DNA of 64,000 bases from Candidatus Yanofskybacteria bacterium CG10_big_fil_rev_8_21_14_0_10_36_16 (GTDB lineage Bacteria; Patescibacteriota; Minisyncoccia; 2-02-FULL-40-12; IGHO2-01-FULL-4-A), in contig PCXQ01000001.1 of assembly GCA_002794035.1 (NCBI GenBank), forward strand, positions 3,256 through 67,255. Reading direction: 5' to 3'. Every line of letters begins with the position of its first letter. Position 1 is the stretch's first letter. The notes beneath the pieces were generated by a model. The model ran no database searches. It was not told where the DNA came from and was given only the letters and a program-made list of their open reading frames with translations. Positions 31,746-50,783 of this stretch are shown piece after piece. The position numbers and the translations under genes were made by a program.

Positions 31746-31809
31746 CATGATTTAGGCAATATAAAATACTCCGGCAAGAGTATTTTATATTTTTATTATT
31801 TGAACTAGC

Positions 31810-33718: not shown

Positions 33719-33721
33719 TTA

Positions 33722-34366: not shown

Positions 34367-34389
34367 TTTATAGTTATTGATGTATTTAG

Positions 34390-35724: not shown

Positions 35725-35743
35725 AAATTAAAAACTTAAAAAC

Positions 35744-37531
35744 TTAAAAACTTTGATAATACTCCCTTATCATATTAGCCATTAATTTTTGTCTTTCTTC
35801 CAGAAATTTTTGATAATCAGTAACTTCCATATCTAACACACTTACTGGTATGGCATTTTCTTTCAAGTTGTTTTCAAGCTCATTCTTGTCTTTAATGCCA
35901 CTGTATTTGAAAACCCCATTTTCAAGATGTTCCAATATTTCAGTAAAGTATTGTTTGGGTGATTTTGCTCCGATTTTGATATTAATTTCACTTTGTGTGT
36001 AGGCAAAATTGGCTATTTGGTTGTAATCTCTCTGTTTTAGCTTGTTGCTTTCAAGATATTTTTTGGGAAATATATGGTGTATATCTCCACGATGTATAAT
36101 CATATCTCGTACTTTTATATCAGTGGAAAGAAAACCTCTTTTTCCTAATTTTACTTGTGCTGCCCAAAAAAGTTTTAAGTACGGACTGGATATACTAGAT
36201 TTAACTAAATCGCGCACCAGACCTTCTGACCAGAATGTATCTGATAATTCAGCCCTCTCTATTCCTTCAAGATATTTTTCAGCACGCTGCTCAACGATGT
36301 TTCTTATATCTGTATCAAATTGGCTTTCGGGAGACCCAGAGTATCTTCCTATTAGCAGCGACATTATGAGCCACTTGCTAACTATACGCTCTATTTCAGA
36401 ATCATTGTATTCTTGTGATCTCAATTTGAGATATAAAATATAAGCAAAGTTTAAAGCATTTTTTGAACGAATTAACCCGCTTACTTCAAACCCCGCTGCC
36501 TTAACTATCATAGAAAAGCGTTCATAATGAGTTTTGTTTACAAAATCTAATACGCCGTTTTTTAATTTATTATAAGAATCCTCAACGATGGCTTCTTCGT
36601 AAGCCCTTGTTTCAAAGTTTCTACCAGATAGTAAACTTACCAAATCCCTCAACCTTCCGCGATTAAACTCTTTAGTAAAGCCAACCCTAATAATATCGGT
36701 ATAATCTGGTTGATAAATGTCATCCTGCAAGTTTTTGGCCCAAAGTATTTTTTGATAATATTCTGTATTAGTAAAGTCATCACTGGCGGATTTAATATTT
36801 TCAATAAACTCCGGATGTCGCAGAGTATGCGCAAAGTAATCTATTGCTTTTCTTAGATTTATCCCAAAATCTCCAAATGCTGCGATTCGTGACATTGCAA
36901 AGTCGGCCTGACTTAACACAACCCCCTCGGAGTTAATCCTGATAAATATTTCAGTAACCGTTTCTATATCAAGATTTTCTTTTAACTCTATAAATCCGAG
37001 CTGCTTATCTTTGATAGAATAAAGCTTGTCAATGTTGTTTTGAATGGTTTGTAAGTCTGCTTTTGGATTTCTTTTTTTGTATTCGTCTACAAGCGCAAAA
37101 ATACCTCCCTCATTTTTCAAAAACTCCGAAATATCACCAATCCAATTAACATCTTTTTCAATCGCGGGTGTTAATGTTTCAAACTTTTCCTCAATGGGAT
37201 TGAAGGCAATCCTGATTCTCATTTTTCTATATTCCTTGTCTAAAACTTCTTCTCCGAGAATGGCTGCTCTTAGTGCCGTAATTCGCTGCTGTCCGTCTAT
37301 AACAATTTTTTTACCGGATGATAAACTGCCATCTTTTAGACGAATAGATGGGTTACGCCATACAATTATGTAGCCAACAGGAAAGCCTTTATAGATAGAA
37401 TCCATCAAATCCCTCACTTTAATTGAACTCCACACAAAGGGTCGTTGAATCTCTGGTATAGCAATTTCATTGGACTGAACCCAGCTTAAAATGTCTTTAA
37501 TAAAATATTGATTTATAATGTATTGTTGCAT
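35744..37531 (-). CDS. GmrSD-family Type IV restriction endonuclease (DUF262 + DUF1524)
   Basis: N-terminal IPEIQRPFVW and IDGQQRITAL (DGQQR, DUF262); C-terminal IHHIFPKKY His-Me finger (DUF1524). Start set at the MQQYI ATG, 4 bp after the res stop. Confidence 0.8.
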   Translation of the reverse strand: MQQYIINQYFIKDILSWVQSNEIAIPEIQRPFVWSSIKVRDLMDSIYKGFPVGYIIVWRNPSIRLKDGSLSSGKKIVIDGQQRITALRAAILGEEVLDKEYRKMRIRIAFNPIEEKFETLTPAIEKDVNWIGDISEFLKNEGGIFALVDEYKKRNPKADLQTIQNNIDKLYSIKDKQLGFIELKENLDIETVTEIFIRINSEGVVLSQADFAMSRIAAFGDFGINLRKAIDYFAHTLRHPEFIENIKSASDDFTNTEYYQKILWAKNLQDDIYQPDYTDIIRVGFTKEFNRGRLRDLVSLLSGRNFETRAYEEAIVEDSYNKLKNGVLDFVNKTHYERFSMIVKAAGFEVSGLIRSKNALNFAYILYLKLRSQEYNDSEIERIVSKWLIMSLLIGRYSGSPESQFDTDIRNIVEQRAEKYLEGIERAELSDTFWSEGLVRDLVKSSISSPYLKLFWAAQVKLGKRGFLSTDIKVRDMIIHRGDIHHIFPKKYLESNKLKQRDYNQIANFAYTQSEINIKIGAKSPKQYFTEILEHLENGVFKYSGIKDKNELENNLKENAIPVSVLDMEVTDYQKFLEERQKLMANMIREYYQSF

Positions 37532-37535
37532 AAAT

Positions 37536-40217
37536 CTATTTTTCCCAAAGTCGGGCCGCTTCATCAAAGCTTTTCGGCTTCTGTGATAGCTTATCCCAAT
37601 CTTCTTGTTTAATATAAAGCATTTTGTATTTAACGTCGTTCTGAATACTATTAACATCTTTTATCCATTGTTCCAAGCGTTTTATTTTCTCAACATCGTC
37701 TAAGTCTTCGCGGCCTTTGGTTTCTATGATGTACACTTCTTTTTCTGAAACCTTTACGAAAAAGTCCGGGTAGTAATTTGAAATATCACCACTGGCATTT
37801 CGGTAATCAATCCTAAAATTAACTGCGAAGTAGTTTTTAGCATAAGAAATTATATCTTCCACTCCATCAAGAAAACCGGCAAACTCAAGTTCAAAATGCC
37901 CATCTCCAACTATTTTATTAAATGCGCTTTTCTTCGGTACAAGATATGCTTGATCCTTCACGACAAATGGTCGGCTCTTACTAATCTTAATATAATTTTG
38001 GATCTCGGCCTCGCCCTTATCTACCACGGTCAATTCGTTTATCTTCTTCTTAAATGTTTCTGTTACTGTTTTGCTGGCTTCAAGCTCTGACAAATTACGC
38101 AAAGCATTAAGATCGTCCAACTGTATTTTTTTATCAAAAAGGTTGTTTTCAATAAACTCTTTTACTTGGCCGTATAGAATATCATAACCGCTAAATAACC
38201 GAAGCTCTTTCATAATAACATTGGTAAAATACCCTATAACACTTTGGTAATCTGGTATGAAATTACTATCTAACTCTGTCTTGTGAGTTATATCACCGCT
38301 GGTAATATCCCTGAATATAATTTCGCGCTTTTCTTCTTCTGAAAACTCCTTTAATTTAACTTTCTTGTGACCAAATGTTGAAACATCAAGGTCTGAAAGG
38401 TTTTTATATTCCCGATAAATACGCGGTGTAAGAATGGGTATTTGAATATCTAACCTCGGTATATCTTTTTTGGTGTTTTCATTATCAACCTCAACAACCA
38501 AAGGAGCTTTAGGTTCTGTGCCTTCTCCCATTTTTCTGTGCTCAAGCTCAACACCTTCACTTTTAATAGATTCCACAAAATCCATAAAAGCATCTGTGCC
38601 CACTACACTAACTAATTCCGGCACTTCTTCGTTGCGATACATTCGTCTTAACCCTCTTCCAAGTGTTTGTTCTGGCAATATGTTGCTCTTTGAAGAATAA
38701 GGCCGCAATCCAACAATGGTTGTAACATTACGGACATCCCAACCTTCTTTAAGCATTAACACGGAAACTATGGCCTTATAAGGATTATCAAAATTATCAA
38801 TCTTGTTTGCTGCTTCCCGCAGCTTTTTTAATTCCTCCTCATTTTTCCCAGTTGCGCTTTCGGATATTTCACCGTTATTTTTTGTATGAATTACTAATAC
38901 AGAGTTTTTAAACTCCGGATAAGTATTTTCAAGATATTCAGCAACTTCATCACCGTTCTTAGTATCGTCGGTCATTAAAAACAAAACTGCTTTTTTGCCC
39001 AGTTTTATATGTTCATCATAAACCTTTTTCCACTCCAAATAACCGAGATGGACATAGTCCTTGTATTTCTCACTGAACTTTGAACTTTTATGCTCTTGTA
39101 GCTTGGCTCGGCTTGCAGAATCGGGCAGGACCGGACGCTTTACTACGTTTTGGTGAATGGCTTCAACCAATGGGTAATCGCTTATTGTTTGAACAAATAT
39201 AGCTCCGTTATTATGTCTTGGGGTAGCTGTTACATCAATTTGTAAAGATAATTCTTTGCCTTTCATCTTGAGACGATTGTGTATATCTTCTATGGACTTA
39301 AACCACGCTAAACGGCCATCGTGGATATGGTGCGCTTCATCATTTAGTACAACCAGCTCATCTATATCTCTAACTATTACCCCAAGATCAACTTTTGATT
39401 CATTTGTTGCGCCAACTGGTTTTTCGCCAAGAAAATATCGGGCCGTGTTTTCATCTTCAAAACTCGCAGCACTGCTATTACTCTCATAAACCCGATGAAT
39501 GTTAGTTAGAAAAATGTTTCCAGTTTTTTTAACTACACCTATTTCGTCTTGAATATGCAAAGTTAATTGAAAATCATCCCGCCAATTTTGGCCTGCAAAA
39601 CCATTATCCGGAAGTACCGGGTCTTCAAAAAATATCTTTAAGCCGTCAAAATCAGACCTGATACGGTCTAAAACAATAATGTTGGGGGTGATAACCAAAA
39701 AGTTTCGGGCTAATTTTGAATCCTCTTCATAAAGTTTATGAAAGAAGCTCCAAGCAAGAAGTAAACTTAACACCTTTGTCTTGCCGCTTCCGGTTGCCAT
39801 TTTTATTACGAAACGTAACCAGGATTCTTCAAACATTCCTGCTGAAACTGCTCCGGAACTATCAAATCTTATAAGGTCGTATTTATCTTTTACTTTTGCT
39901 ACTTCGTGGAGATAAATGGTTGTTTCTACTGCTTCTCTCTGTCCAAAATAGTATTGAAAAAGAAAGGTCTCTCCATCTGTATTTTCTCTTGGGTGGTCTA
40001 TTTTAAACCACCATTTAAGTAACGCTTTACTTGTTTCACTTGCCCCTTCATAATCAGCATCTCGCCATTCTTTGACCTTCCTACGAAGTTGATCCACTAA
40101 AGGCGGTAAAAGCCGAGCATAGCCCTGTTCTCTTAATGTCTCGTCTGCCGGAAACCACCGGAGGTCCGGGTTTAAAATCTCGTGAGGTGATTGTGGAAAC
40201 TTAGGGTGTAGTGCCAT
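37536..40217 (-). CDS. res: Type III restriction-modification Res subunit (SF2 helicase-nuclease)
   Basis: MATGSGKTKV Walker A, NDEAHH DEAH box, C-terminal endonuclease region; downstream of mod. Confidence 0.8.
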   Translation of the reverse strand: MALHPKFPQSPHEILNPDLRWFPADETLREQGYARLLPPLVDQLRRKVKEWRDADYEGASETSKALLKWWFKIDHPRENTDGETFLFQYYFGQREAVETTIYLHEVAKVKDKYDLIRFDSSGAVSAGMFEESWLRFVIKMATGSGKTKVLSLLLAWSFFHKLYEEDSKLARNFLVITPNIIVLDRIRSDFDGLKIFFEDPVLPDNGFAGQNWRDDFQLTLHIQDEIGVVKKTGNIFLTNIHRVYESNSSAASFEDENTARYFLGEKPVGATNESKVDLGVIVRDIDELVVLNDEAHHIHDGRLAWFKSIEDIHNRLKMKGKELSLQIDVTATPRHNNGAIFVQTISDYPLVEAIHQNVVKRPVLPDSASRAKLQEHKSSKFSEKYKDYVHLGYLEWKKVYDEHIKLGKKAVLFLMTDDTKNGDEVAEYLENTYPEFKNSVLVIHTKNNGEISESATGKNEEELKKLREAANKIDNFDNPYKAIVSVLMLKEGWDVRNVTTIVGLRPYSSKSNILPEQTLGRGLRRMYRNEEVPELVSVVGTDAFMDFVESIKSEGVELEHRKMGEGTEPKAPLVVEVDNENTKKDIPRLDIQIPILTPRIYREYKNLSDLDVSTFGHKKVKLKEFSEEEKREIIFRDITSGDITHKTELDSNFIPDYQSVIGYFTNVIMKELRLFSGYDILYGQVKEFIENNLFDKKIQLDDLNALRNLSELEASKTVTETFKKKINELTVVDKGEAEIQNYIKISKSRPFVVKDQAYLVPKKSAFNKIVGDGHFELEFAGFLDGVEDIISYAKNYFAVNFRIDYRNASGDISNYYPDFFVKVSEKEVYIIETKGREDLDDVEKIKRLEQWIKDVNSIQNDVKYKMLYIKQEDWDKLSQKPKSFDEAARLWEK

Positions 40218-40218
40218 A

Positions 40219-40614
40219 TTAGGTCAATCTGTAGATATATGCGTCTTTAATAAAAATACCGTTAATGATGTTTGATTTAAATCTAATACCTGCTTTTGAC
40301 TGTTTTGATGTTTTTATCATTGTTCTCAAAAGTTTCAGAAAGTCATTATCGTGATGAAGTATTGTTATATTTGAAAGTCCGATGTCTTTTACTGTTTTTT
40401 CTTCCCCGAATTGATTGATGAAATCATTATAATTTTGCCGCGTATTTTTAATACGGTCATATTTTTTTGATGAAATTAATAATCTCCAAGCATCTGACTC
40501 GGGAACAAGTATCCAAAGAAAAACCGTTGGATTTATTTTTTGTTTATCCATCAAATCTAATAAGGTTTTTCCACTTTCAATTTTTGGTTCTTCTACCATA
40601 ATTTTTTTATCCAA
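40219..40614 (-). CDS. Hypothetical protein, partner of the HEPN protein (possible toxin/antitoxin component)
   Basis: 131 aa. Overlaps the HEPN gene by 22 bp and ends 1 bp before res. No clear MNT GS-x-D-x-D motif. Confidence 0.4.
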   Translation of the reverse strand: MDKKIMVEEPKIESGKTLLDLMDKQKINPTVFLWILVPESDAWRLLISSKKYDRIKNTRQNYNDFINQFGEEKTVKDIGLSNITILHHDNDFLKLLRTMIKTSKQSKAGIRFKSNIINGIFIKDAYIYRLT

Positions 40615-41030
40615 ACTAAAATACCCTTACGCCTATCTTTTATTGAGTTGATTAAAGCTTCTGCGTCAGTTTTCTTGCATATTCCATATCTGCTTTCTTC
40701 GGTCCAATCTTTAACCGTGCTCCAATTTGACTCAAAGCCCTTATCTTTGCCTGCTCTCTTATCAAAGGCCCACTTGATACCACTTACACTCAATAAGTCG
40801 TTTAAATCGTGACTATAGAGTTTCTGATAAACACTCTTTTTTGGAGGGAAGCTCTTTTCTTTGACATTTTTGCAATAGCAAGCCTTGAGGGCAAGTTCAA
40901 CGGCATAACCTGCTAAATAGTAAGCACCACTATACTCCTTATTATTAAAAAGGGTTATCGCTTCTCTGATGCGCCTCAATGCTAACTTTTTAAAATCACC
41001 GTATTCTGGATTGTCCCAAAATAAAGCCAT
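40593..41030 (-). CDS. HEPN-domain protein
   Basis: AYYLAGYAVELALKA helix and YSHDLNDLL motif typical of HEPN. Confidence 0.55.
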   Translation of the reverse strand: MALFWDNPEYGDFKKLALRRIREAITLFNNKEYSGAYYLAGYAVELALKACYCKNVKEKSFPPKKSVYQKLYSHDLNDLLSVSGIKWAFDKRAGKDKGFESNWSTVKDWTEESRYGICKKTDAEALINSIKDRRKGILVWIKKLW

Positions 41031-41033
41031 ACT

Positions 41034-43283
41034 TTATATACTAATCTCAATTATTTTCATTGTATCGTTACCGAAAATATCTACGACCTTTATGGCAATT
41101 TTACGTCTGCCTTTTGGTAATTCTTTATAAGCGGTTATAAACTCAAGGTTTCTGTCCTTTTTGGTTCTAAATGATTGCCATTCGTTTTCAAAAATGTAAT
41201 CGCCGGTCCATTGTTCTTCAATTTCTTCCTTTTCGTTTTTTATAGCCACAACTTCTTTTTTGCTTTCAAAGTTAAAGTCAACGGACCAGTAATCAATCCA
41301 ATCACTCCATTTTTCAGTCAAAACATCCCTTGTAACTACACCCTCTTTGTCTTTTGAGATTTTAATAATTTTACCATTTTCTACTACAAGCTTTTTGCTG
41401 CCGTTTTTGAGGCTTTCTTCTACCTCTTTAATTGAATCTTGATTATAAAAAACTGAAAAATCAGTTAACTCAATGGCCAATGAGTTCTTTTTTATATGAG
41501 GCTTAACTTCAATGTAAGATACGTCGTGAAAAACAACTTGGTTTTTTTCTACAGCCCGTTTGTCAAATACATCTCGTGGAATATATTTAAGGGCCAAATC
41601 AACACCTTGATTTTTGGCATCTTCTTGTATTCTCGGAAATAATCCCATTTCAAACTCAAAAGCCAATATGTCTACTTTAGTTATTTTCTTTTCAACTGCT
41701 TCTTTAATTACTTCTTCAACAAATAACCGAGTAACTGGCAAGTTAATTGGGCCAACAGATACTAATCTTGCAGATTTTTTACCGAAAAAGGTTTTGAAAT
41801 TATTAATTGGTTCTGCTTTGTATGCTGACAGGATTAAAGAAACAAAATCTTTTTCTTTCTGTGCGATTTGTTTTTGCTTTTGCTCGTCCCGAAGATTGGG
41901 GTTTATACCAACGTAATGCTGCCTTTCATATTTACCAAGATTTAATACTTCAAATGCCCGATAATCTTTCCCAGTCTTTTTAAGTTCTCGTTGCACTCCA
42001 ATCATTCTCTTGCGTGTTGTGTGAATTGAGAACTTACCCAAGTCAGAACCAATCCATTTGCGGCTTAGTTTTTCAGCTGCAGCAAGGGTGGTACCAGAAC
42101 CGACAAAGAAGTCGGCAACAAGATCGTCCTCGTTTGAAGAGGCCTTTATTATGCGCTCAAGTAAGGACTCTGGTTTTTGGGTTGGATAATTATTACGTTC
42201 TTTAGCCATTGGATTAACTGGATTTATATCTAGCCAAATATCTTCAGAAACATTTCCTTTAGTATCTTCGTAAAACCTTTTTACATATGGTAACCCACTT
42301 TCAGAAAAAACAATAAGTCCCCGTTTCATTCCTTCATCTATTCTTTCTTGAGACCATATCCAGTGTTTGCCTGCCGGTGGATACAGCAACTTTTCACCGA
42401 ATTTTTTTGCTTCACCTTGTCCCTTTTGAGTAAAATCAGCCAAAGAATATCTTTTTCCCGTTTGCTCATCGGTGTACCTGTAATGAGTTTTTAATAATTT
42501 TTCCGATTTCGGTAAAAATTGAGTATTAAAAATAGTCTTCTCTTTATCTTTTGAATAAAAGAAGACTGTATCATGTACGTTTGGATAAGTTTTTGACTGT
42601 GGCTTAGCCGATGTCAGTTTTTGCCAAATAATTTCATTTTTAAAATTATTAGTTCCAAATATCTCATCTAATACCAACCTCATGTAGCTGTTAACCCTCC
42701 AATCACAATGTACATAAATACTCCCGTTTGCGGCCAACAAATCTCGCATCAGTGAAAGTCGCTCGTAAATCATAGAGATAAAACTATCTGCTCCCTTGCC
42801 CCAAGTATCCCGATATGCTAATTCCTCTAATACTGTTGGTTGTTTCTTAAACTCTTCGCCCCCAACCTCAATATCCATAGAAAAATCTGCCCCAACATCA
42901 AAAGGCGGATCAATGTAGATAAGTTTAATGCCCCCATTAGCTTCAATTTCTTCTCGTAGGGGTCCATTTTTTAAGCTTGATAGGATTAGTTTGTTGTCAC
43001 CCCAAATAAGTTTATTAGTCCAGCCCTTGATTTGGCGGCCGCGCTGGTCAAAATCAAACAACACCTGCTGGCGCTTTACTTCCTTCTCACTTCTCGGCTC
43101 ATCAACCTGTTCAATAACCTGAAATGGCAAGATAACATTGGTGACTTCATTTGTCTTGCCGTTCCAGACAAGCTCAACCTCTCGTTTGTCCTCAAACAAA
43201 AGAAACCGGTACTTATCGGGAAGAGGTTTACCGGCTTCAATAAACTTTATAGCATCGCGTTTTTCATTGTCAGTTAGATCCAT
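41034..43283 (-). CDS. mod: Type III restriction-modification Mod subunit (beta-class N6/N4 DNA methyltransferase)
   Basis: DPPF (motif IV) precedes FFVGSGTTLAAA (motif I). 749 aa with a large target-recognition region. Confidence 0.8.
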   Translation of the reverse strand: MDLTDNEKRDAIKFIEAGKPLPDKYRFLLFEDKREVELVWNGKTNEVTNVILPFQVIEQVDEPRSEKEVKRQQVLFDFDQRGRQIKGWTNKLIWGDNKLILSSLKNGPLREEIEANGGIKLIYIDPPFDVGADFSMDIEVGGEEFKKQPTVLEELAYRDTWGKGADSFISMIYERLSLMRDLLAANGSIYVHCDWRVNSYMRLVLDEIFGTNNFKNEIIWQKLTSAKPQSKTYPNVHDTVFFYSKDKEKTIFNTQFLPKSEKLLKTHYRYTDEQTGKRYSLADFTQKGQGEAKKFGEKLLYPPAGKHWIWSQERIDEGMKRGLIVFSESGLPYVKRFYEDTKGNVSEDIWLDINPVNPMAKERNNYPTQKPESLLERIIKASSNEDDLVADFFVGSGTTLAAAEKLSRKWIGSDLGKFSIHTTRKRMIGVQRELKKTGKDYRAFEVLNLGKYERQHYVGINPNLRDEQKQKQIAQKEKDFVSLILSAYKAEPINNFKTFFGKKSARLVSVGPINLPVTRLFVEEVIKEAVEKKITKVDILAFEFEMGLFPRIQEDAKNQGVDLALKYIPRDVFDKRAVEKNQVVFHDVSYIEVKPHIKKNSLAIELTDFSVFYNQDSIKEVEESLKNGSKKLVVENGKIIKISKDKEGVVTRDVLTEKWSDWIDYWSVDFNFESKKEVVAIKNEKEEIEEQWTGDYIFENEWQSFRTKKDRNLEFITAYKELPKGRRKIAIKVVDIFGNDTMKIIEISI

Positions 43284-43371
43284 GGGCCATAGTAAGATAA
43301 CTTTTACTTAAAGGGTATCACTTTTGTGCTGTTTTTTAAAGGTCTGAAAAAGAGCGTTGAGGGCGTTGACA

Positions 43372-43785
43372 CTAAACGAGAAATTGAGCGACAAACCAGA
43401 TGCCGGCAGTAATTAAAAACCATATCAACTGATTGGCTTCCCTAAAATCTCCGGAGCGGTAGTAGCGGCCAACTTGGGTTACGGTAAATATCGCGGCAGT
43501 CATCGGGATAAAGTTAAATGGAATATCAAATCTAAAGGACACGAGATAATATACGATTATTAAAGCTACCGCTTCGGAAAAACCCGAAAAGCGTGATTTT
43601 AAAATATCGCTATGTTTATCTAACAACCCTTTGAATGGGGCATAAATGAACATAGCAATAATTGGACTAATGGCTGCGATATAAAACAATGAGAATAAGG
43701 CCCATAAGAATGGCAAAAATATAAAAGAAGAAATAATAACTATACCCCATAGCAGTAAACTAATTTTTGATTTTATTACATCCAT
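43372..43785 (-). CDS. Hypothetical 4-TM membrane protein
   Basis: Start taken at MDVIKSK. The track's upstream extension is encoded by the hairpin cluster. Confidence 0.35.
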   Translation of the reverse strand: MDVIKSKISLLLWGIVIISSFIFLPFLWALFSLFYIAAISPIIAMFIYAPFKGLLDKHSDILKSRFSGFSEAVALIIVYYLVSFRFDIPFNFIPMTAAIFTVTQVGRYYRSGDFREANQLIWFLITAGIWFVAQFLV

Positions 43786-44012
43786 AAAATTACAAAACCC
43801 GCCGCTAGGCGATGGATTTCTCCACCTGTTACCCTTTCGGGTAACAACCACTGCTGGTGCTCCTAAACGACGGGTTTAGTACCCAGCAGTGGTTTTTACG
43901 TCATACCTCAAATGTTGACATTTTGAGGGTTAGGCAATTTTTAGTTGTTAGACCAATATTATCACAAAACCTTGAAAATCTCCATAATTTTCGTTTTACT
44001 TAAATTAATACT

Positions 44013-44768
44013 ATGGCCTTAATTAACGACAAACAATTTAAACAATTTTTAGAACTCCTAATAAATAAGGTTGAATTAAGAAACGATATTCATTTGGGAA
44101 TACAATACCGTGAATTAATCCAAATATTTTTAGATGATAACGCTATCAAAGATTATTTGCGCTATTCTGAAAATAAGAAGTTGTTAAAATTAATAGGCAT
44201 ATCTAAATATAAAGAAAAGGAAGATCCTTACCCTGATGATTATTATATAAACGAGATAACGCCTAACAATGATTTTATAGGCCCGAAAAGATATTATGCC
44301 GTAAAGAGGTATATACGGTATAATTTCTACCCAAAGGACAACTTTATACTTGATGTGTCTGATAAAAAAATTAAAGGTTTTTATAAGCAGTATCAAAAAG
44401 AAGGTCCGGGGCAAGACCCAAAACGGCTAATTTCCAAAAATAAAAGTGCTTATTTTTATAAATCAAAACAAATAGTTTTTGACAGTGAAGAAACTGACTA
44501 CTTCAGAGTATTTGATGTCCTTTACGAAAATAGTGGGCAAGACAACTTTTTGTCATATGAAAATATAGATAAAGAAATGGTCCGAAGGGGCTCGCCAAAA
44601 CTTATAGATGATCAACAAAAAATTAAACGTATTCATAATGCAGTTAAGAACTTATTTTTATATTCTCGTTGCGGAAGTGAAAAGCTAAAAAATACTACGC
44701 CCAATAAAACTGAACTAATAAAAAAGGTTAGAGGGAGAGGGTGTGTTTTCAATAACCCTCTAATTTAA
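44013..44768 (+). CDS. Hypothetical protein (first gene of the plus-strand element module)
   Basis: 251 aa; Lys/Tyr-rich; no motif recognised. Confidence 0.35.
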   Translation: MALINDKQFKQFLELLINKVELRNDIHLGIQYRELIQIFLDDNAIKDYLRYSENKKLLKLIGISKYKEKEDPYPDDYYINEITPNNDFIGPKRYYAVKRYIRYNFYPKDNFILDVSDKKIKGFYKQYQKEGPGQDPKRLISKNKSAYFYKSKQIVFDSEETDYFRVFDVLYENSGQDNFLSYENIDKEMVRRGSPKLIDDQQKIKRIHNAVKNLFLYSRCGSEKLKNTTPNKTELIKKVRGRGCVFNNPLI

Positions 44769-44792
44769 TAAGTTATCTCTCAATTTCTTGTG

Positions 44793-44820
44793 GACAGCCA
44801 AATATCGGCTGTCTTTTTTT
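44793..44820. terminator. Intrinsic terminator
   Basis: GACAGCC-aaatatc-GGCTGTC followed by T8. Confidence 0.7.
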
Positions 44821-44899
44821 CTTTTTTTACTTGGTTTTAGCGGCCAAAGAGATAAACGGAGAAATTAAAAGATATTAAATATTGATTCAAAATTAAATT

Positions 44900-45526
44900 A
44901 TGCAACCAATAATTAAAACTTTTACTGAACCGGATTGGGATTATCTGTTTTGGACTTGGGATTTAGAAAAACAATGGCAGGAGTCATTGCCAAGGCCAAC
45001 TGAACGAGAGTTGTTAGGTATTTTCCCGGAAGCAAAAAAGATATTGCCGGCATTATTAAGGGACTGGCAACAAAGAAAAAGTGAATTAACCAAAGAACTG
45101 GCTCGGAAATTAAAAATAGTAAAACTTGGCGCGGATAGCGACAGCGAAAGATTTTTCTGGACTGAATGGCTGAAAACAAAATATTTAGGAGAAATTACTG
45201 AAATCGTTAATGACATTAAAAAGTTCAAGAGAATGATGGCTATATCAAACAACCGGGGCCGAGCCTTACGAAGCGAAGAGTCATTGCAAAAGGCTTTAGC
45301 TGTGCCAATAGCATCGGCTATCCGAATTAAACTAAGAAAATTGGGTAATAAACTTGTTGGGCTGTGTCCCCTACATAACGAGAGTAACCCATCATTTTAT
45401 ATCTATACCGATACTAATTCCTTTTATTGCTACGGATGTGGCAAGGGTGGAAATGTAATCAACTTGGTTAGATTTCTACACGATTACACATTCCCAGAAG
45501 CAATAAAGTATTTAACTAATTTATAA
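44900..45526 (+). CDS. CHC2 zinc-finger (DnaG-primase-type) protein
   Basis: C-terminal CPLHNESNPSFYIYTDTNSFYCYGCGKGGNVINLV matches the primase CHC2 Zn-binding module. Confidence 0.6.
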   Translation: MQPIIKTFTEPDWDYLFWTWDLEKQWQESLPRPTERELLGIFPEAKKILPALLRDWQQRKSELTKELARKLKIVKLGADSDSERFFWTEWLKTKYLGEITEIVNDIKKFKRMMAISNNRGRALRSEESLQKALAVPIASAIRIKLRKLGNKLVGLCPLHNESNPSFYIYTDTNSFYCYGCGKGGNVINLVRFLHDYTFPEAIKYLTNL

Positions 45527-45609
45527 CTTTTGTTTCTTGTTCGGGCTCTTGGCAAAGGCCATAGTAAGCTCCGGCCAGGAGCTCAAACAAGAAACGCGGA
45601 GCTTACTTT

Positions 45610-47154
45610 ATGTCAAACAACCAAAACAATGAAAAACAAAATAAGGAAGGGCGGAAACCACAAGCAACCAAAATCGTAGAATTGGTCAGTGAAAGCAACA
45701 TAACCCTATTCCATAACGAGTTAAAACAGCCCTATGCCTATATTGAAATAAATAACCATAGCGAAATATGGCCCTGTGAAAGCAGGCAATTTAAGGACTG
45801 GCTGGGACACATATTTTGGAATAACGAAGGAAAATCTGCCTATCCTAATGCGATAAACGGTGCGCTATCAACATTAAGAGCCAAGGCGCTTTACGAAGGA
45901 CAGAAGTATAAACTAAACAACCGAGTAGCAATCAAAGACGGTGCAATTTGGTATGACCTTTCTAACAATAACTGGGAAGCGGTCCGTATAAGCAAAAATG
46001 GATGGCGAATCATAGGCAACCCTCCTATCATATTTCAGCGCTTTTCTCATCAGCAAGAACAATTAACCCCGGTACCAGAAGGAAATATAAAGGATGTCTT
46101 ATCGCTAATCAATGTAAAAAAAGAACACCAACTGCTTTTATTGGTTTACTTAGTATCCTGTTTTATTCCGGACTTTCCCCATCCGATATTGGTGGTTCAC
46201 GGGCCTCAAGGCTCATCAAAATCAATGCTATCCAAAGTTCTTAAAAGCTTAGTTGATCCATCTGTATTAGAAACTTGCGACTTCCCTGCAAGTAAAGCGG
46301 AACTGGCTCAAATACTATCCCACCATCACTATGTTGTCTTTGATAATCTCTCGTACCTATCAGATTCAAATTCCGACATTCTATGCCGTGCTGTTACCGG
46401 AGGAGGATTTTCAAAACGGGAACTCTACACGAACGACGAAGACGTAATACACCTATTTAAGCGTTGCATAAACCTCAACGGCATAAATCCGGTGGCAACA
46501 AAACCAGACCTGCTAGAACGAAGCATATTACTGGAATTAGAAAGGATACCCAATGAAAAAAGGAAAAAAGAGACAGATATTTTGCAGCAATTTGAAACCA
46601 AGAGACCAGAAATATTAGGGGCAATCCTAAACACAGTTGCCAAAGCAATGGAGATTAAAGAATCAATAAAAGTAACTGGATTGCCGCGGATGGCGGATTT
46701 TACAGAGTGGGGTTGCGCTATCGCTGAAGCAATAGGACATCCAAAAGAAGAGTTTTTATCTTCTTATTTTGAAAACATAAAGTCGCAAAATGACCAGGTT
46801 ATTTATGATAGCCCTGTTTGCAGTACTCTTTTGAGCTTAATGAAGGAGCGAGAGCAATGGAATGGAACAGCAACGCAACTTTTATCTGAGTTAATTGAAG
46901 AGGCGGAAAGGTTAAATATCAACACAAAAGAAAAAGGCTGGCCCAAATCAGCAGCGTCATTAAGCGGTAAATTAAATAACTATAAAACCAATCTTGAAGA
47001 AGCCGGTATAAAAATAAATCGTTTTGATGAAAACAGGCAAAGACAATTATCTATCAGCAATGATTCTGCTATTGAGAGCCAGGCCGGCAACGGATTAGCC
47101 GAAGAAGACGATAGAGACGCTGCAACGCTCTCAACGCTCTTTCCCGAGCATTAA
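45610..47154 (+). CDS. P-loop NTPase replication protein (phage/plasmid primase-associated SF3-helicase-like)
   Basis: VVHGPQGSSKS Walker A; hhhhDN Walker-B-like VVFDNL. Sits next to the CHC2 primase finger gene. Confidence 0.5.
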   Translation: MSNNQNNEKQNKEGRKPQATKIVELVSESNITLFHNELKQPYAYIEINNHSEIWPCESRQFKDWLGHIFWNNEGKSAYPNAINGALSTLRAKALYEGQKYKLNNRVAIKDGAIWYDLSNNNWEAVRISKNGWRIIGNPPIIFQRFSHQQEQLTPVPEGNIKDVLSLINVKKEHQLLLLVYLVSCFIPDFPHPILVVHGPQGSSKSMLSKVLKSLVDPSVLETCDFPASKAELAQILSHHHYVVFDNLSYLSDSNSDILCRAVTGGGFSKRELYTNDEDVIHLFKRCINLNGINPVATKPDLLERSILLELERIPNEKRKKETDILQQFETKRPEILGAILNTVAKAMEIKESIKVTGLPRMADFTEWGCAIAEAIGHPKEEFLSSYFENIKSQNDQVIYDSPVCSTLLSLMKEREQWNGTATQLLSELIEEAERLNINTKEKGWPKSAASLSGKLNNYKTNLEEAGIKINRFDENRQRQLSISNDSAIESQAGNGLAEEDDRDAATLSTLFPEH

Positions 47155-47186
47155 TAAAACAAGGGGTACTACCCATAACTTAAGTT

Positions 47187-47558
47187 ATGCAGTGTAAATA
47201 CATAAAAAATAATAAAAAACAGTGCGGAGCAAACGCAATGCTCAAAAACAGTTATTGCTTTTATCATAATCCGGATGTCAAAAAAGCAGATAAAAAAGAG
47301 GCTCAATCAAGAGGTGGTAAGGGCAATAAAAGTAGAGTTAGTGAAACTCTTCCGCCAATAACTTTCAAGAAGTCCCGAAACGTCGTCGGATTGCTTGAGG
47401 AAACTATTAATTTGGTTAGGGCAGGAAAAATGGAAATACGAGTTGCTAACTGCATAGGATACTTGTCGGGCCACATCATCAAGGCAATTGAGGTTTCAGA
47501 GCTTACGCAACGCCTACAGGAAGTTGAGAAAAAAATAGAAATAAAATGGCAGGAATAA
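47187..47558 (+). CDS. Hypothetical protein with N-terminal Cys cluster
   Basis: CKYIKNNKKQCG...CFYH. Confidence 0.3.
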   Translation: MQCKYIKNNKKQCGANAMLKNSYCFYHNPDVKKADKKEAQSRGGKGNKSRVSETLPPITFKKSRNVVGLLEETINLVRAGKMEIRVANCIGYLSGHIIKAIEVSELTQRLQEVEKKIEIKWQE

Positions 47559-47836
47559 CTTTATCTACAATAAAAAGATTAGAGAAAAAAGCCGAAGAAT
47601 TAAGGGCGGCAAATCCAATAGTGGACCGGGTCATAACTGTTCCTTGGCCTTTAGAGATTTATAGCGAAGAGGGAGAAAGATTTATCCAAGAGGAAATTGA
47701 GCGGCGAAATCAAATTAGGAAAGAATCCGGTATTTATTCCGAAGGTCCTTTCTACGTGATTATGCCGGGTAGAATGCCTCAATGGGTGGCCGAAGAAGAA
47801 TGGAGGAAACAAGAAGAGGCAGAGAAACTTAAATAA
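47546..47836 (+). CDS. Hypothetical protein
   Basis: 96 aa, overlaps the previous gene by 13 bp; charged and helical. Confidence 0.3.
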   Translation: MAGITLSTIKRLEKKAEELRAANPIVDRVITVPWPLEIYSEEGERFIQEEIERRNQIRKESGIYSEGPFYVIMPGRMPQWVAEEEWRKQEEAEKLK

Positions 47837-47864
47837 TTTCCAATTTTAAGTTATAATGAGTAAA

Positions 47865-47959
47865 CTACACAAAAACCCAAATAGTAGTCAAGACCTTGAA
47901 CATAACGAGGGGCAACGAGGGTTTTTGTGTAGTAACAAAACTTCTTGTCGTTGCCCCTC
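47865..47959 (+). promoter_or_regulatory. Two overlapping alternative hairpins upstream of the serine recombinase gene
   Basis: Hairpin A has a 14-bp perfect stem: CTACACAAAAACCC (47865-47878) pairs with GGGTTTTTGTGTAG (47919-47932). Hairpin B has a 12-bp stem: GAGGGGCAACGA (47907-47918) pairs with TCGTTGCCCCTC (47948-47959) and is followed by TTTGTGCT. A's 3' arm sits inside B's loop. Confidence 0.45.
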
Positions 47960-48058
47960 TTTGTGCTATAAGGCGTCCTCTGTTTTAGATCCCAAGTCAT
48001 TAGAACAAGCATATTTTAGAATTTTTGACTGGGTTTTAGAAAACAAGGACAGTAAATT

Positions 48059-49702
48059 ATGGAAAAAACAAAAAGATTAGCTGCTCTATATGGTAGAGTA
48101 AGCACATCAAACCAAGAGGACCAGAAAACAATTGAGAACCAAGTTGATGCTCTTAATGAGTTAGCGAACAAAAATGATTTTACCATTGTTCAAGAATATA
48201 AAGATGATGGTTGGTCCGGAGATATTTTAGCCAGACCGGCCCTTGATCAGCTAAGGCAAGATGCAAAAAGTAAAATATGGGATACTTTGTTAATTTACGA
48301 TCCGGATAGGTTGGCCCGAAGATACTCATACCAGGAGTTGATTATGGACGAGTTAAAAGAGGCCGGGGTTGAAGTGATATTTATTACTGTATCTGCACCA
48401 AAAAATCCTGAAGATAAGATTTTGCATGGAGTTCGGGGGTTATTTGCAGAATATGAGAGGGTACGGATTACAGAACGTTTTCGTTTAGGAAAGCTCCGCA
48501 AGGTAAAAAACGGCCATGTATTAACAACGGAAGCCCCTTATGGCTATAACTACATAAGAGGAGACAGAGAAAGGCAAATACACGGTTATTATAAAATTAA
48601 CCCCGAGGAAGCAGAGGTTGTAAAAAAGATTTTTCAGTGGATTGGGGATGAAAAACTAAATATCAGAGCTGTTGTAAGAAAATTAAAAGAAGTAGGAATT
48701 AAACCAAGAAAAGCCAAAAGAGGTGTTTGGGCTACGAGCACAATATCAACAATGCTAAAAAACGGGGCTTATATTGGAGAGGCACATTGGGGTAGTTCGT
48801 ATGCAGTAGTACCCGAAAATCCAATCAAAAAAGAGAAGTATAAAAAAATGAAAAAAAGTAGCCGGAGAATAAAACCGAAAGAAGATTGGATAGCATCTAA
48901 AATACCTGTACCTGCCATAATAACCAAGGAGCTGTTTGCAAAGGTACAAAAACAACTAAAAACAAATTCCTCTCTATGTCCAAGAAATAAAAAATATACA
49001 TATCTACTAGGCGGCAAAATACATTGTGTATGCGGTAAAACCAGAAGTGGAGTAGGCCCACAGCGCGGTAAGCATCTATACTATCGCTGTAATGACAGGA
49101 TTTATAGCTTTCCTATACCTCCTACCTGTAAAGAACAAGCCATCAATGCAAGGATAGCTGATGAATTAGTTTGGAATAAAATAGCAAATCTTATGAGTTC
49201 ACCGGAATTGTTAAAAAACCAAGCAGAAAAATGGTCTGATTCTCGCAAGGTGGGGGCAAGATCTCATATTGGCGATATAGAAACAACAGAAAAGGAAATA
49301 TTAAAGTTAAAAGCACAGGAGGATCGCTATAATAAAGCATATGGTGCCGGGGTGTTTGATATAAACCAATTAAAAGAGTATGTTGCTCCGGTAAGAGAAC
49401 GAATAGAATTGTTAAAATCCCAAATAGTCAAAATCAAACAGGAAGAAAACCAGTCGCAAGACAATGCCCTCCCCTCGCTAGATGAAATCCGGTCATTTAC
49501 GAAAGTAACAAGAAATGCTTTATTTAACTTGAATTTTGAAATGAAAAGAGCCACAATTTTAAATGTTATAGATAAAATTATCGGTACACAAAAACAATTG
49601 AAGGTGTATGGTCAAGTGCCGATAACACAAAATTATGTCACATACAAAACTAGCTATCGGTATAGTCGGGTTGCCCAATGTTGGAAAATCAACATTATTT
49701 AA
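48059..49702 (+). CDS. Large serine recombinase (integrase)
   Basis: LAALYGRVSTSNQ catalytic Ser, resolvase fold, recombinase domain, CxxC zinc ribbon (CVCGK...CNDR), coiled-coil. The 3' end overlaps ychF by 68 bp. Confidence 0.85.
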   Translation: MEKTKRLAALYGRVSTSNQEDQKTIENQVDALNELANKNDFTIVQEYKDDGWSGDILARPALDQLRQDAKSKIWDTLLIYDPDRLARRYSYQELIMDELKEAGVEVIFITVSAPKNPEDKILHGVRGLFAEYERVRITERFRLGKLRKVKNGHVLTTEAPYGYNYIRGDRERQIHGYYKINPEEAEVVKKIFQWIGDEKLNIRAVVRKLKEVGIKPRKAKRGVWATSTISTMLKNGAYIGEAHWGSSYAVVPENPIKKEKYKKMKKSSRRIKPKEDWIASKIPVPAIITKELFAKVQKQLKTNSSLCPRNKKYTYLLGGKIHCVCGKTRSGVGPQRGKHLYYRCNDRIYSFPIPPTCKEQAINARIADELVWNKIANLMSSPELLKNQAEKWSDSRKVGARSHIGDIETTEKEILKLKAQEDRYNKAYGAGVFDINQLKEYVAPVRERIELLKSQIVKIKQEENQSQDNALPSLDEIRSFTKVTRNALFNLNFEMKRATILNVIDKIIGTQKQLKVYGQVPITQNYVTYKTSYRYSRVAQCWKINII

Positions 49703-50783
49703 TGCCCTGACTAAAAAACAAGTAGATATTTCTAATTATGCTTTTACAACGATCGACCCAAATGTCGGGGTTGTTGGGGTACCTGATGAAAGATTAGATA
49801 AATTGGCCAAGATGTCTAATTCCGAGAAAATTACCCCTACGGCCATTGAATTTATTGATATCGCAGGTCTTATTAAGGGCGCAGCAGAAGGAGAAGGGTT
49901 GGGTAATAAGTTTTTAGCTAATATTCGTGAAGTAGATGCCATTGCTCACGTAGTAAGGGTTTTTCCCGCCGGAGGCGGGTCCGCTCATGGCGGAGAAATA
50001 CAGCATGTGCACAAAAATATTGATCCGGTAAATGATATTGAAATAATCAATCTGGAATTAATAATGGCTGATTTGCAGACTATTGAAAGAAGATTAAGGG
50101 AGACAAAAGGCAATGACCCTGCCAAGACTTTTGAAAAAGAGGTGTTAAACAAACTTAAAGAAAATTTAGAAAAAGAAATTCTTGCAATAAACATTTTATT
50201 TACTGAAAAAGAACAAGAAATTGTTCGTGGGTTACATCTTTTAACCAACAAAAAAGTTATATATGCCTTTAATGTGGCAGAACAACAGTTGAAAGACAAT
50301 TGGCAGCCTAACAAAGAATTGCTTGATGTTATAAAAAACAATGAATTTGTTGTTGTCTCAAATACGTTTGAACAATTGCTATCTGAATCAGACCCTGAAG
50401 AAAAAAAGGTTTATCTTGAAGAACTAGGTTTAAAATATAGCGGTTTAGATCAGCTTATAAAAAAAGGATACAAGGCTCTTGGTTTAATTACATTTTTGAC
50501 AACTGGTCCTAAAGAAACACGTGCTTGGACAGCTCATGAGGGTGATTCTATCCCCCGTGCGTCATCTGCTATCCATACTGATTTTGAAGAAAAATTTATT
50601 AAAGCCGATGTGATAAATTGGCAAACACTTTTAGATGTAGCGGTCCATTCGGCGGATTCGGGTTCCTCATCACAAGCAGGCTCAGGCCAAGCTTGGTCTA
50701 AAGCAAAAGAGCTTGGCAAGATGAGAACAGTTGGTAAAGATTACATAATTCAAGAAGGTGATGTAGTCGAGATTAAAATTTGA
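49635..50783 (+). CDS. ychF: Ribosome-binding ATPase YchF
   Basis: GIVGLPNVGKSTLFNALT G1 motif; TGS-like C-terminus with a short insertion. Confidence 0.85.
   Translation: MSHTKLAIGIVGLPNVGKSTLFNALTKKQVDISNYAFTTIDPNVGVVGVPDERLDKLAKMSNSEKITPTAIEFIDIAGLIKGAAEGEGLGNKFLANIREVDAIAHVVRVFPAGGGSAHGGEIQHVHKNIDPVNDIEIINLELIMADLQTIERRLRETKGNDPAKTFEKEVLNKLKENLEKEILAINILFTEKEQEIVRGLHLLTNKKVIYAFNVAEQQLKDNWQPNKELLDVIKNNEFVVVSNTFEQLLSESDPEEKKVYLEELGLKYSGLDQLIKKGYKALGLITFLTTGPKETRAWTAHEGDSIPRASSAIHTDFEEKFIKADVINWQTLLDVAVHSADSGSSSQAGSGQAWSKAKELGKMRTVGKDYIIQEGDVVEIKI

What the first reader, a model, noticed from the sequence alone, without database searches (positions are those of the whole stretch)
43852..49702. 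Integrative element with large serine recombinase whose reading frame runs 68 bp into ychF
The integrase ORF (547 aa, catalytic YGRVSTSNQ) ends at 49702, while ychF begins at 49635 (MSHTKLAIGIVGLPNVGKST). This implies the element's attachment junction lies at or inside the ychF 5' end, so the element may now supply the ychF promoter or start. Upstream are a CHC2 primase Zn-finger protein and a P-loop replication protein, which is typical of integrated plasmid or phage-like elements. The opposite boundary, and whether the defense island is cargo of the same element, are unresolved. Candidate left ends are about 43.85-44.0 kb or about 31.3-32.7 kb.
Basis: partly seen in the sequence, partly recalled or inferred. 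Interest (0 to 1): 0.65.

Follow-up and report, generated by a model that had tools for sequence, protein, structure and literature searches.

The report
Mobile element that splits its integrase
An 18.3-kb mobile element sits in the first codons of the essential-type GTPase gene ychF of a Candidate Phyla Radiation (CPR) bacterium, and its recombination site lies inside its own serine-integrase gene, so insertion rewrites the ends of both genes.

Summary
The 547-aa large serine recombinase ORF (48059-49702) overlaps ychF (49635-50783) by 68 bp.

The element runs from 31324 to 49660 (18,335 bp), so the whole defence island is cargo.

The crossover is a GG dinucleotide, at 31324-25 in attL and 49659-60 in attR, 24 nt inside ychF. 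The element supplies ychF's ATG and first 8 codons. The native start (MLSIG) is stranded at 31312, next to murC.

The new point is that the ~50-bp attP (ATGTC-N19-GG-N19-GACAT) lies inside the integrase coding region. Integration therefore moves the last 47 integrase codons, a conserved IPFxFxIxLP tail, 18 kb away to 31326-31469. The integrated gene ends instead in 13 out-of-frame ychF codons.

Of 80 related integrase loci, 56 show the same int-ychF junction. Five more complete attL/attR pairs were found, plus one apparently circular relative with an intact integrase.

I infer, without proof, that the C-terminal swap changes integrase activity with integration state.

Tyrosine-recombinase precedents exist (Mx8, SSV-type). 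I found none for serine recombinases.

The parts
31300..31349 (+). attL. It consists of the host B arm (to 31323), the core GG (31324-25) and the element P' arm (31326-31349).
   Evidence: The block GGTAT is shared with attR. The left side carries the native ychF start and the right side carries the integrase tail.
31312..31325 (+). Displaced native ychF 5' end, ATG CTT AGT ATA GG (MLSIG...).
   Evidence: It has the same N-terminus as the empty-site ychF genes L002, L004, L005 and L006 (MLSIGIVG). Joining it to 49661 onward gives MLSIGIVGLPNVGKSTLF.
31326..31469 (+). Displaced 3' end of the integrase gene: 47 codons plus TAA, YGMNAIEHKEAKFIPFSFVINLPKPRYERIIVNRDRQGRILRSMAPK*.
   Evidence: Tails of intact homologues and attL extensions of related elements match here (P0066 E 4.9e-11, L061 attL extension E 4e-14), while the preceding parts of the intact tails match 4957x-49663. 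The same motif is present in 21 other loci.
31482..31539 (+). Hairpin just after the displaced integrase stop. It is a candidate integrase terminator in the circular form.
   Evidence: Inverted repeat I4, 27-nt arms, 74% complementary. The function is inferred only.
31548..32615 (.). Small ORFs of unknown function at the left end of the element (65-aa Cys-rich ORF 31548-31745, 101-aa ORF 31810-32115 on the minus strand, others).
   Evidence: ORF list. No significant family hits.
32672..43283 (-). Defence cargo: 348-aa unknown, NERD (33722-34366), PIF1/RecD-like helicase (34390-35724), GmrSD/HEC-05-like (35744-37657), type III Res-like (37536-40217), a 131-aa ORF with no significant match (40219-40614), HEPN (40593-41030), type III Mod methyltransferase (41034-43283).
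   Evidence: Pfam, PADLOC, HEPN, NCBIfam. All lie between attL and attR.
43372..43851 (-). Membrane protein (159 aa; the more likely start is Met at about 43785).
   Evidence: A homologue (51% identity) sits at the same place in the closest related element, L055. An alternative public gene call gives 137 aa.
44013..47154 (+). Putative replication module: 251-aa unknown, 208-aa CHC2 primase zinc-finger protein (44900-45526), 514-aa P-loop protein (45610-47154).
   Evidence: PF01807 E 4.6e-20. PHROGs DNA primase families. Homologues are present in L055 and L091. The 514-aa protein has no family hit; its Walker A motif was read from the sequence.
47187..48080 (+). Three small ORFs (123, 96 and 74 aa) just upstream of int. 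They are candidates for a directionality factor.
   Evidence: Homologues are present in L055, L060 and L074. No family hits. A circular relative has an HTH_17 excisionase-type ORF at this position.
48059..49702 (+). Integrase ORF as it stands in the integrated state (547 aa). The element-encoded part runs to 49660 (residues 1-534); codons 535-547 (49661-49699) and the stop are ychF DNA read out of frame.
49635..49685 (+). attR. It consists of the element P arm (49635-49658, which is also int codons 526-533 plus the first base of codon 534, and new ychF codons 1-8), the core GG (49659-60) and the host B' arm (the P-loop coding region).
   Evidence: Occupied loci share ATGTCnnnTnCAAAACTAnCnATCGG. 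The attP dyad symmetry is centred on GG. Paired att sites are shown.
49635..50783 (+). ychF, the target gene, with an element-derived start (MSHTKLAI) fused in frame to host codons from Gly9 onward.
   Evidence: TIGR00092 383 bits. Empty-site genes start M-x(1-3)-[IV]G, whereas occupied genes start MS[SH][ST]KL[AST][IV]G.

Best explanation
SHOWN BY SEQUENCE COMPARISON. Window 31324-49660 is an 18.3-kb integrative element of a Candidatus Yanofskybacteria genome. It carries a putative replication module, a defence-gene cargo and a large serine recombinase.

The recombinase's ~50-bp attP is a dyad, ATGTC-N19-GG-N19-GACAT, located inside the 3' end of its own coding sequence. The attB is the 5' end of ychF, with the crossover GG in the Gly codon of IGIVG, just upstream of the P-loop. 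Recombination exchanges gene ends in two ways.

1. ychF loses its own start and upstream region, which are left at attL beside murC. It gains an element-encoded ATG plus 8 codons that keep the P-loop in frame, so the target gene stays whole.

2. int loses its last 47 codons, a conserved IPFxFxIxLPxPRYERII tail now at attL 18 kb upstream. It terminates instead after 13 out-of-frame ychF codons.

The 24-bp P arm therefore does three jobs: it is a recombinase half-site, int codons 526-533 plus the first base of codon 534, and YchF codons 1-8.

INFERRED. The excised circle encodes a 581-aa integrase and the integrated copy a 547-aa form that lacks a C-terminal beta-strand. I propose that this state-dependent swap alters integrase activity. 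The most likely form is that full-length Int drives attP x attB integration, while the truncated Int, probably with one of the small upstream ORFs, is the form available for attL x attR excision. ychF is most likely transcribed by read-through from the element's plus-strand genes.
For: Int is a large serine recombinase by domains and by fold of a 60-61% identical homologue, whose top Foldseek hits are the SPbeta, phiC31, Bxb1 and LI integrases.

Of 80 homologue loci, 56 have ychF overlapping the int 3' end in the same way. None of 54 ychF loci from other genomes has the integrase upstream. Their YchF proteins start MLSIG, MSFSIG or MKIG, 3-4 residues shorter than in occupied loci.

Window 31312-31349 reads ATGCTTAGTATA-GG-TATGGTATGAACGC..., that is, the native ychF start followed in frame by the integrase tail. 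Tails of intact integrases match partly at 4957x-49663 and partly at 31320-31457 (P0066 E 4.9e-11). The attL search pattern gave 0 hits in 851 kb x 2 strands of empty loci and exactly 1 in the window.

Five other elements give complete attL/attR pairs, 7.0-11.4 kb apart, with the same structure. Dyad symmetry over 22 attP sequences peaks sharply at GG (0.559, against 0.375 or less elsewhere).

The tail block lies 26-53 nt beyond the core and has codon-position entropies of 0.98/0.64/1.68, which indicates protein-level selection. AlphaFold2 of the intact homologue P0066 predicts a confident strand at 551-559 after a disordered linker that is encoded by attP.

Contig L136, which carries P0066, has a 16-nt terminal overlap. 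Joining its ends completes an HTH_17 ORF (E 4.6e-14) upstream of an intact int with attP and no ychF.

L005 has murC directly upstream of ychF, as in the reconstructed empty site.
Against: No empty site and no circular form of this particular element was found. Three independent assemblies all show the occupied state.

The window's P' arm departs from the dyad consensus at +20 and +24, and the conserved RH is EH here, so this copy could be impaired.

The central dinucleotide is inferred from symmetry and from shared blocks. AT, 3 nt further on, is excluded only by symmetry and by being palindromic. attB shows little symmetry (0.29).

Nothing shows what the C-terminal tail does, and I could not read which surface the predicted strand packs on.

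Relatives outside Patescibacteria keep an intact gene on long contigs, and P0117 lies in a Bradyrhizobium chromosome. In those lineages the internal palindrome may not be the site that is used.

No promoter for ychF was identified.
Confidence: 0.88

Rival explanations
1. The element is compact (about 43.85-49.7 kb), and the defence island to its left is an independent chromosomal island.
For: Gene orientation switches at 43.85-44.0 kb, and a hairpin lies at 43841-43899. The closest relative, L055, shares only genes from the membrane protein rightwards.
Against: There is no att-like site and no ychF or integrase remnant near 43.85-44.0 kb. The displaced ychF start and the integrase tail are both at 31.3 kb. 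Other complete elements also carry variable cargo between attL and the core genes.
Confidence: 0.03
2. The copy in this genome is a fossil. It integrated as described but can no longer excise, so the int-ychF overlap is now a fixed chromosomal arrangement.
For: The P' arm has two departures from the consensus at the outer motif. Only the occupied state is seen in three assemblies. Decayed copies exist in the family, for example L101, where int is broken into two ORFs.
Against: Both parts of int are intact ORFs, and the displaced tail keeps the conserved motif through to its stop. The element's replication genes are intact too.
Confidence: 0.2
3. The overlap of attP with the int 3' end is neutral compaction. 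The C-terminal tail is dispensable, and the swap has no regulatory consequence.
For: The segment encoded by attP itself is predicted to be disordered (residues 525-547). Tail lengths vary from 27 to 52 aa, and the distal part differs between clades. The integrated-state tail is arbitrary out-of-frame ychF sequence.
Against: The IPFxFxIxLP block is conserved across clades with a third-position-biased substitution pattern and is predicted as a confident strand. It stays intact in 6 of 6 attL sites even though it is separated from the gene.
Confidence: 0.35
4. The truncated integrase is inactive, a 'suicidal' integrase as in SSV-type elements. Excision would then need full-length Int supplied in trans by another copy.
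For: This is the analogy with SSV-type integrases (PMC7253208). Loss of a conserved strand could destabilise the zinc-ribbon domain.
Against: Only 47 of 581 residues are lost. The catalytic, recombinase, zinc-ribbon and coiled-coil parts remain. In Mx8 the comparable swap did not inactivate the enzyme (PMC6070905).
Confidence: 0.15

Closest known systems
Canonical large serine integrases of phages and elements (phiC31, Bxb1, A118/LI, SPbeta SprA)
   Same: Same domain order: resolvase, recombinase domain, zinc ribbon with embedded coiled coil. Same fold matches. The attP is about 50 bp and dyad-symmetric around a 2-bp core, with outer motifs at +/-20-24, inside the phiC31 zinc-ribbon-domain contact zone of +/-17-27 (10.1101/2025.05.02.651858). 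Integration is into a protein-coding gene.
   Different: To my knowledge the att sites of those enzymes lie outside the integrase ORF, so the protein is the same before and after integration, and direction is set by a separate directionality factor. Here attP is inside the ORF and the C-terminus changes. Sequence identity to solved integrases is only 12-18%.
Myxophage Mx8 integrase (IntP to IntX)
   Same: attP lies within the int coding sequence. Integration creates a recombinant gene with a new 3' end, and the enzyme is altered rather than destroyed (PMC6070905, citing Tojo 1996 and Magrini 1999).
   Different: Mx8 Int is a tyrosine recombinase that targets tRNA-linked attB sites. Here the enzyme is a serine recombinase and the target is the 5' end of a protein-coding gene, which the element repairs.
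SSV-type 'suicidal' integrases of archaeal elements
   Same: The recombination site lies within the integrase ORF, so the gene is partitioned on integration and reconstituted on excision (PMC7253208).
   Different: They are tyrosine recombinases of archaea. The split gives two inactive pseudogenes, whereas here 92% of the protein, including all recognised domains, stays in one piece.
Genomic islands that insert in the 5' end of dusA
   Same: [quoted passage not shown]
   Different: The target and the hosts differ, and no overlap of attP with the integrase ORF is described in the abstract I read.
Pipolins encoding large serine recombinases and integrated at ychF
   Same: ychF has been reported as an integration site for elements that encode large serine recombinases and carry defence cargo (PMC11551731).
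   Different: Pipolins are defined by a primer-independent PolB, and no PolB domain was found among the element's Pfam-scanned ORFs. I did not test whether their recombinases are related to this family.
Integration-dependent immunity of mycobacteriophages (Broussard et al. 2013; from my own knowledge, not checked here)
   Same: An attP inside a coding sequence makes the gene product differ between the free and integrated states, which works as a genetic switch.
   Different: In those phages the split gene is the repressor, not the integrase.

Membership tests
Large serine recombinase (serine integrase) | N-terminal resolvase-type catalytic domain with a serine nucleophile | tested here: met
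   PF00239 E 3.7e-32 over residues 8-153. R13 and S15 of YGRVSTS are invariant in 28 homologues.
Large serine recombinase (serine integrase) | Recombinase domain followed by a Cys4 zinc ribbon carrying a coiled-coil insertion | tested here: met
   PF07508 E 3.9e-22. PF13408 scores 24.5 bits, just under its cut-off of 25.3. C323, C325, C344 and C357 are invariant. The AlphaFold2 model of a homologue has long helices across 364-503 and then a hairpin. The top Foldseek hits are the SPbeta, phiC31, Bxb1 and LI integrases.
Large serine recombinase (serine integrase) | An attP of about 50 bp with dyad symmetry around a 2-bp non-palindromic core, and hybrid attL/attR sites without long direct repeats | tested here: met
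   Symmetry peaks at GG (0.559) over 22 attP sequences. Six attL/attR pairs share only GG-N-AT.
Large serine recombinase (serine integrase) | Catalyses attP x attB recombination | not testable with these tools
   This needs an in vitro or in vivo assay.
Integrases with attP inside their own ORF (Mx8 IntP; SSV-type) | The recombination site lies in the int coding sequence, so integration changes or splits the gene | tested here: met
Integrases with attP inside their own ORF (Mx8 IntP; SSV-type) | Tyrosine recombinase chemistry and fold | tested here: not met
   The protein is a serine recombinase. It works like these systems but is not a member.
Prophage | Capsid, portal, terminase or tail genes | tested here: not met
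   No such Pfam or PHROGs hit was found among the scanned ORFs. The IMG/VR scans found no close relative and no attP match; the only integrase hit was one distant one at 33% identity. Small ORFs under 60 aa were not scanned.
Integrative conjugative or mobilisable element | Relaxase, coupling protein or type IV secretion genes | tested here: not met
   None was found in the window element. A distant relative, L095, does sit next to a TrwB/TraG-like gene.
Pipolin | Primer-independent family B DNA polymerase | tested here: not met
   No PolB domain was found in the element's Pfam-scanned ORFs.
YchF (target gene) | Equivalog-level match, including the G1 P-loop and the C-terminal YchF domain | tested here: met
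   TIGR00092 scores 383 bits against a cut-off of 279, and the alignment starts at residue 6. PF01926 and PF06071 also match.

The most novel reading that the evidence does not exclude
The C-terminal swap is a built-in directionality switch for a large serine recombinase. The 581-aa enzyme made only from the excised circle would be integration-proficient. The 547-aa enzyme made only from the integrated copy, lacking the beta-strand that follows the coiled-coil hinge, would be released for attL x attR excision, with less or no need for a separate directionality factor. That would be a natural, genetically encoded way of coupling recombinase direction to integration state. It would be widespread in Patescibacteria and usable as a self-limiting integration tool.
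Probability: 0.22. Interest if true: 0.85.

Novelty: new variant of a known kind. Interest (0 to 1): 0.66.

Why it matters
Very little is known about how mobile DNA moves in Candidate Phyla Radiation bacteria. This analysis defines, to the base pair, a large family of small integrative elements there. Of 80 sampled integrase loci, 56 sit at the same ychF site. The elements ferry restriction-modification and other defence genes.

The elements exploit the nearly invariant P-loop coding DNA of ychF as a landing pad and repair the gene with a 24-bp arm. That arm is at the same time a recombinase-binding half-site, integrase codons and new YchF codons.

For recombinase biology, this is, as far as I could find, the first serine-integrase family whose attP lies in its own ORF, so the protein differs between the free and integrated states. 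This bears directly on the much-studied question of how serine integrases control direction, and it gives simple constructs to test (Int581 against Int547).

It also shows that public annotations of these genomes misplace the ychF start, and that they report hybrid integrase ORFs whose tails are host sequence.

Tried and rejected
1. A blastn-short and tblastn search of the window for a duplicated ychF 5' end or a long direct repeat found nothing significant. The remnant is only 14 nt, and it was found only after the empty-site starts were known.

2. An exact look-up of the 382-aa YchF failed because public gene calls use a later start.

3. IMG/VR scans with the integrase, with an alignment of it, and with exact and degenerate attP patterns gave no close relative and no attP match; the only integrase hit was one distant one at 33% identity.

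4. The plasmid collection holds only generic serine recombinases at about 30% identity.

5. A look-up of murC to find an empty site of the same strain returned only occupied contigs.

6. Promoter and terminator scans around 49.0-49.75 kb and 31.15-32.7 kb did not exceed shuffled controls. A -10-like hexamer 6 nt upstream of the new ATG is present in only 8 of 51 occupied loci, so I dropped the idea that the element brings a leaderless promoter.

7. AT as the central dinucleotide was rejected. Its symmetry score is 0.209 and it is palindromic.

8. Trans-expression of the displaced tail from the old ychF start (the ATGA overlap at 31332-35) was rejected as a general mechanism, because other attL sites lack the Met.

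9. A 22/27 match of attR to 36694-36720 inside the GmrSD-like gene was judged to be chance.

10. Six literature searches found no description of this family and none of a serine recombinase with attP in its own ORF. Two further searches failed on term format.

Full report
**Observation.** The ORF list gives a 547-aa ORF at 48059-49702 (+) and a 382-aa ORF at 49635-50783 (+), which overlap by 68 nt. The first is a large serine recombinase, with Resolvase E 3.7e-32, Recombinase E 3.9e-22 and a zinc-ribbon match. The second is YchF: TIGR00092 scores 383 bits against a cut-off of 279. An in-frame TAA at 49623-25 leaves ATG 49635 as the only start that preserves the Walker A motif. The genome is Candidatus Yanofskybacteria CG10_big_fil_rev_8, because the integrase is 100% identical to P0001.

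**The overlap is a family trait.** The integrase has more than 1000 homologues, and the 119 best-scoring ones are 58-67% identical, mostly from Patescibacteria metagenomes. Their C-terminal tails resemble one another in a way that corresponds to GIVGLPNVGKST read one base out of frame.
- Of 80 homologue loci fetched from metagenomes, 56 have ychF overlapping the integrase 3' end in the same way.
- Three contigs end too early to tell.
- Twenty-one have no ychF downstream.
- Conversely, none of 54 ychF loci from other genomes has the integrase upstream.

**The element supplies the ychF start.** In the 54 unoccupied loci YchF begins MLSIGIVG, MSFSIGIVG, MKIGIVG and similar. In occupied loci it begins MS[SH][ST]KL[AST][IV]GIVG, encoded by a conserved ATGTCnnnTnCAAAACTAnCnATCGG. 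The first eight codons therefore travel with the element.

**attL and the split integrase.** Just after murC (29774-31255) the window reads ccATGCTTAGTATAGGTATGGTATGAACGCAATAG. This is a native-type start (MLSIG) up to GG.
- From there an open frame encodes YGMNAIEHKEAKFIPFSFVINLPKPRYERIIVNRDRQGRILRSMAPK* (31326-31469).
- In the loci without ychF the integrase ORF simply continues past the same point. It runs for 27-52 codons and carries the motif [YH]G.N..RH...IPFxFxIxLP.
- C-terminal tails of intact homologues match the window in two pieces. The first part maps to 4957x-49663 and the second to 31320-31457 (P0066 E 4.9e-11).
- attL extensions of related elements match the second piece alone (L061 attL extension E 4e-14).
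- A pattern describing 'old start + GG + tail' hits the window once. It hits 851 kb x 2 strands of unoccupied loci not at all.
- The same pattern finds attL in five other occupied loci (L056, L061, L099, L101, L109), 7.0-11.4 kb upstream of their attR.

Joining the window's two halves gives a 581-aa integrase. It also gives an attB whose product is MLSIGIVGLPNVGKSTLF, identical to unoccupied genes. L005 has murC directly upstream of ychF.

**Geometry of the sites.** All six attL/attR pairs share GG-N-AT, and N differs in three pairs.
- Over 22 attP sequences (16 intact, 6 reconstructed), dyad symmetry has a single sharp maximum on GG: 0.559, against 0.375 or less at every other centre.
- The outer motifs are ATGTC at -24..-20 and GACAT at +20..+24.
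- That placement fits the zinc-ribbon-domain contact zone of phiC31 attP, +/-17-27 (10.1101/2025.05.02.651858).
- I therefore place the crossover at GG, 31324-25 and 49659-60, which makes the element 18,335 bp.
- The new ychF ATG is the outermost P-arm motif.
- attB symmetry is weak (0.29). Only the B' arm, the P-loop coding DNA, is strongly conserved among hosts.

**Content.** The following lie between the att sites.
- The displaced integrase tail and small ORFs (31.3-32.6 kb).
- A minus-strand defence block: NERD, a PIF1/RecD-like helicase, a GmrSD/HEC-05-like protein, a type III Res-like protein, HEPN and a type III Mod methyltransferase.
- A membrane protein that is also present in the closest relative, L055.
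- A plus-strand block with a CHC2 primase zinc-finger protein and a 514-aa P-loop protein.
- Three small ORFs, then int.

No capsid, terminase, relaxase, secretion or PolB genes were found. Viral-contig scans gave no close relative and no attP match, only one distant integrase hit at 33% identity. The other complete elements carry different cargo.

**A free form exists in the family.** Contig L136 (8,445 nt) carries the intact 586-aa homologue P0066 with attP and no ychF. Its ends overlap by 16 nt, and joining them completes an HTH_17 excisionase-type ORF (E 4.6e-14) just upstream of int.

**The lost tail looks functional.** The IPFxFxIxLP block lies 26-53 nt beyond the core, so in most loci it lies beyond the 24-bp P' arm.
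- Its codon-position entropies are 0.98, 0.64 and 1.68.
- In an AlphaFold2 model of P0066 (mean pLDDT 76.9), the last zinc-ribbon hairpin is at 504-521.
- The attP-encoded segment 525-547 is disordered, and 551-559 is a confident strand.
- I could not see what that strand packs against.

**Mechanism.** The anatomy above is shown by comparison. That the window copy still moves is inferred. Both integrase parts are intact, but the P' arm deviates at +20 and +24, and only occupied contigs were found.

That the C-terminal swap changes activity is an inference from conservation and from the Mx8 precedent. In Mx8 the equivalent swap altered the integrase rather than killing it (PMC6070905). My preferred version is that full-length Int integrates and truncated Int is the form that excises.

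ychF is probably read through from the element's plus-strand genes, because no promoter or plus-strand terminator signal stood out.

**Comparison with what is known.** The enzyme is a member of the large serine recombinases. The 'attP within int' design works like Mx8 and the SSV-type integrases (PMC7253208), but those are tyrosine recombinases. ychF has been reported as a site for pipolins that encode large serine recombinases (PMC11551731), and 5'-end gene targeting recalls the dusA islands (PMC4482086). Six literature searches found no serine recombinase with attP in its own ORF and no description of this family.

**Verdict.** This is a new variant of a known kind, of moderate to high interest.

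Noticed in passing
window 36694-36720: A 27-nt stretch inside the GmrSD-like gene (on the opposite strand) matches the attR core plus B' arm (49655-49681) at 22 of 27 positions. It is probably chance (E 3.6) but could be a pseudo-att site.
   Followed up: partly
window 31312-31335: The stranded native ychF ATG now opens a 7-codon ORF (MLSIGMV*). Its TGA overlaps an ATG that would start a 44-aa peptide equal to the displaced integrase tail. The Met is absent from the attL sites of other elements.
   Followed up: partly
window 49671: Public gene calls start ychF at TTG 49671 (370 aa), which avoids most of the overlap but removes the first glycine of the Walker A motif. ATG 49635 fits the family better.
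   Followed up: yes
window 43841-43899, 45532-45595 and 47901-47965: Three strong hairpins lie inside the element. One sits between the divergent membrane-protein and 251-aa genes, one between the primase zinc-finger and P-loop genes, and one inside the 74-aa ORF. Their function is unknown; an origin or regulatory role is possible.
   Followed up: no
L001-L054, upstream of ychF: In 22 of 52 unoccupied loci a TAnnnT hexamer lies 6-7 nt upstream of the ychF ATG and there is no Shine-Dalgarno sequence. This suggests leaderless ychF mRNAs in these bacteria.
   Followed up: partly
L101 9986-11629; L123 about 2100; L134 about 11590: These are decayed or odd family members. In L101 int is broken into two ORFs, L123 has a one-base frame difference at the junction, and L134 has a junction that reads IGIVGSQ* and then diverges.
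   Followed up: no
P0081, P0086: In high-GC hosts the hybrid integrase ORF runs more than 60 (P0086, 609 aa) to about 100 (P0081, 648 aa) codons out of frame into ychF. This inflates annotated protein lengths.
   Followed up: no
L084-L105 group, L095 5462-6853, P0117: Relatives from non-Patescibacteria (L095 has GC 0.52; P0117 lies in a Bradyrhizobium chromosome) keep an intact integrase, including the internal ATGTC-N19-GG-N19-GACAT dyad. L095 lies next to a TrwB/TraG-like coupling protein. Where and how these integrate is unknown.
   Followed up: partly
window 35744-37657 / 37536-40217: The listed ORFs for the GmrSD-like and Res-like genes overlap by 122 nt. The upstream start of the former is probably over-extended.
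   Followed up: no
window 26151-26233: A tRNA-Leu(CAA) gene lies 5 kb left of the element. It is not involved in the integration.
   Followed up: yes
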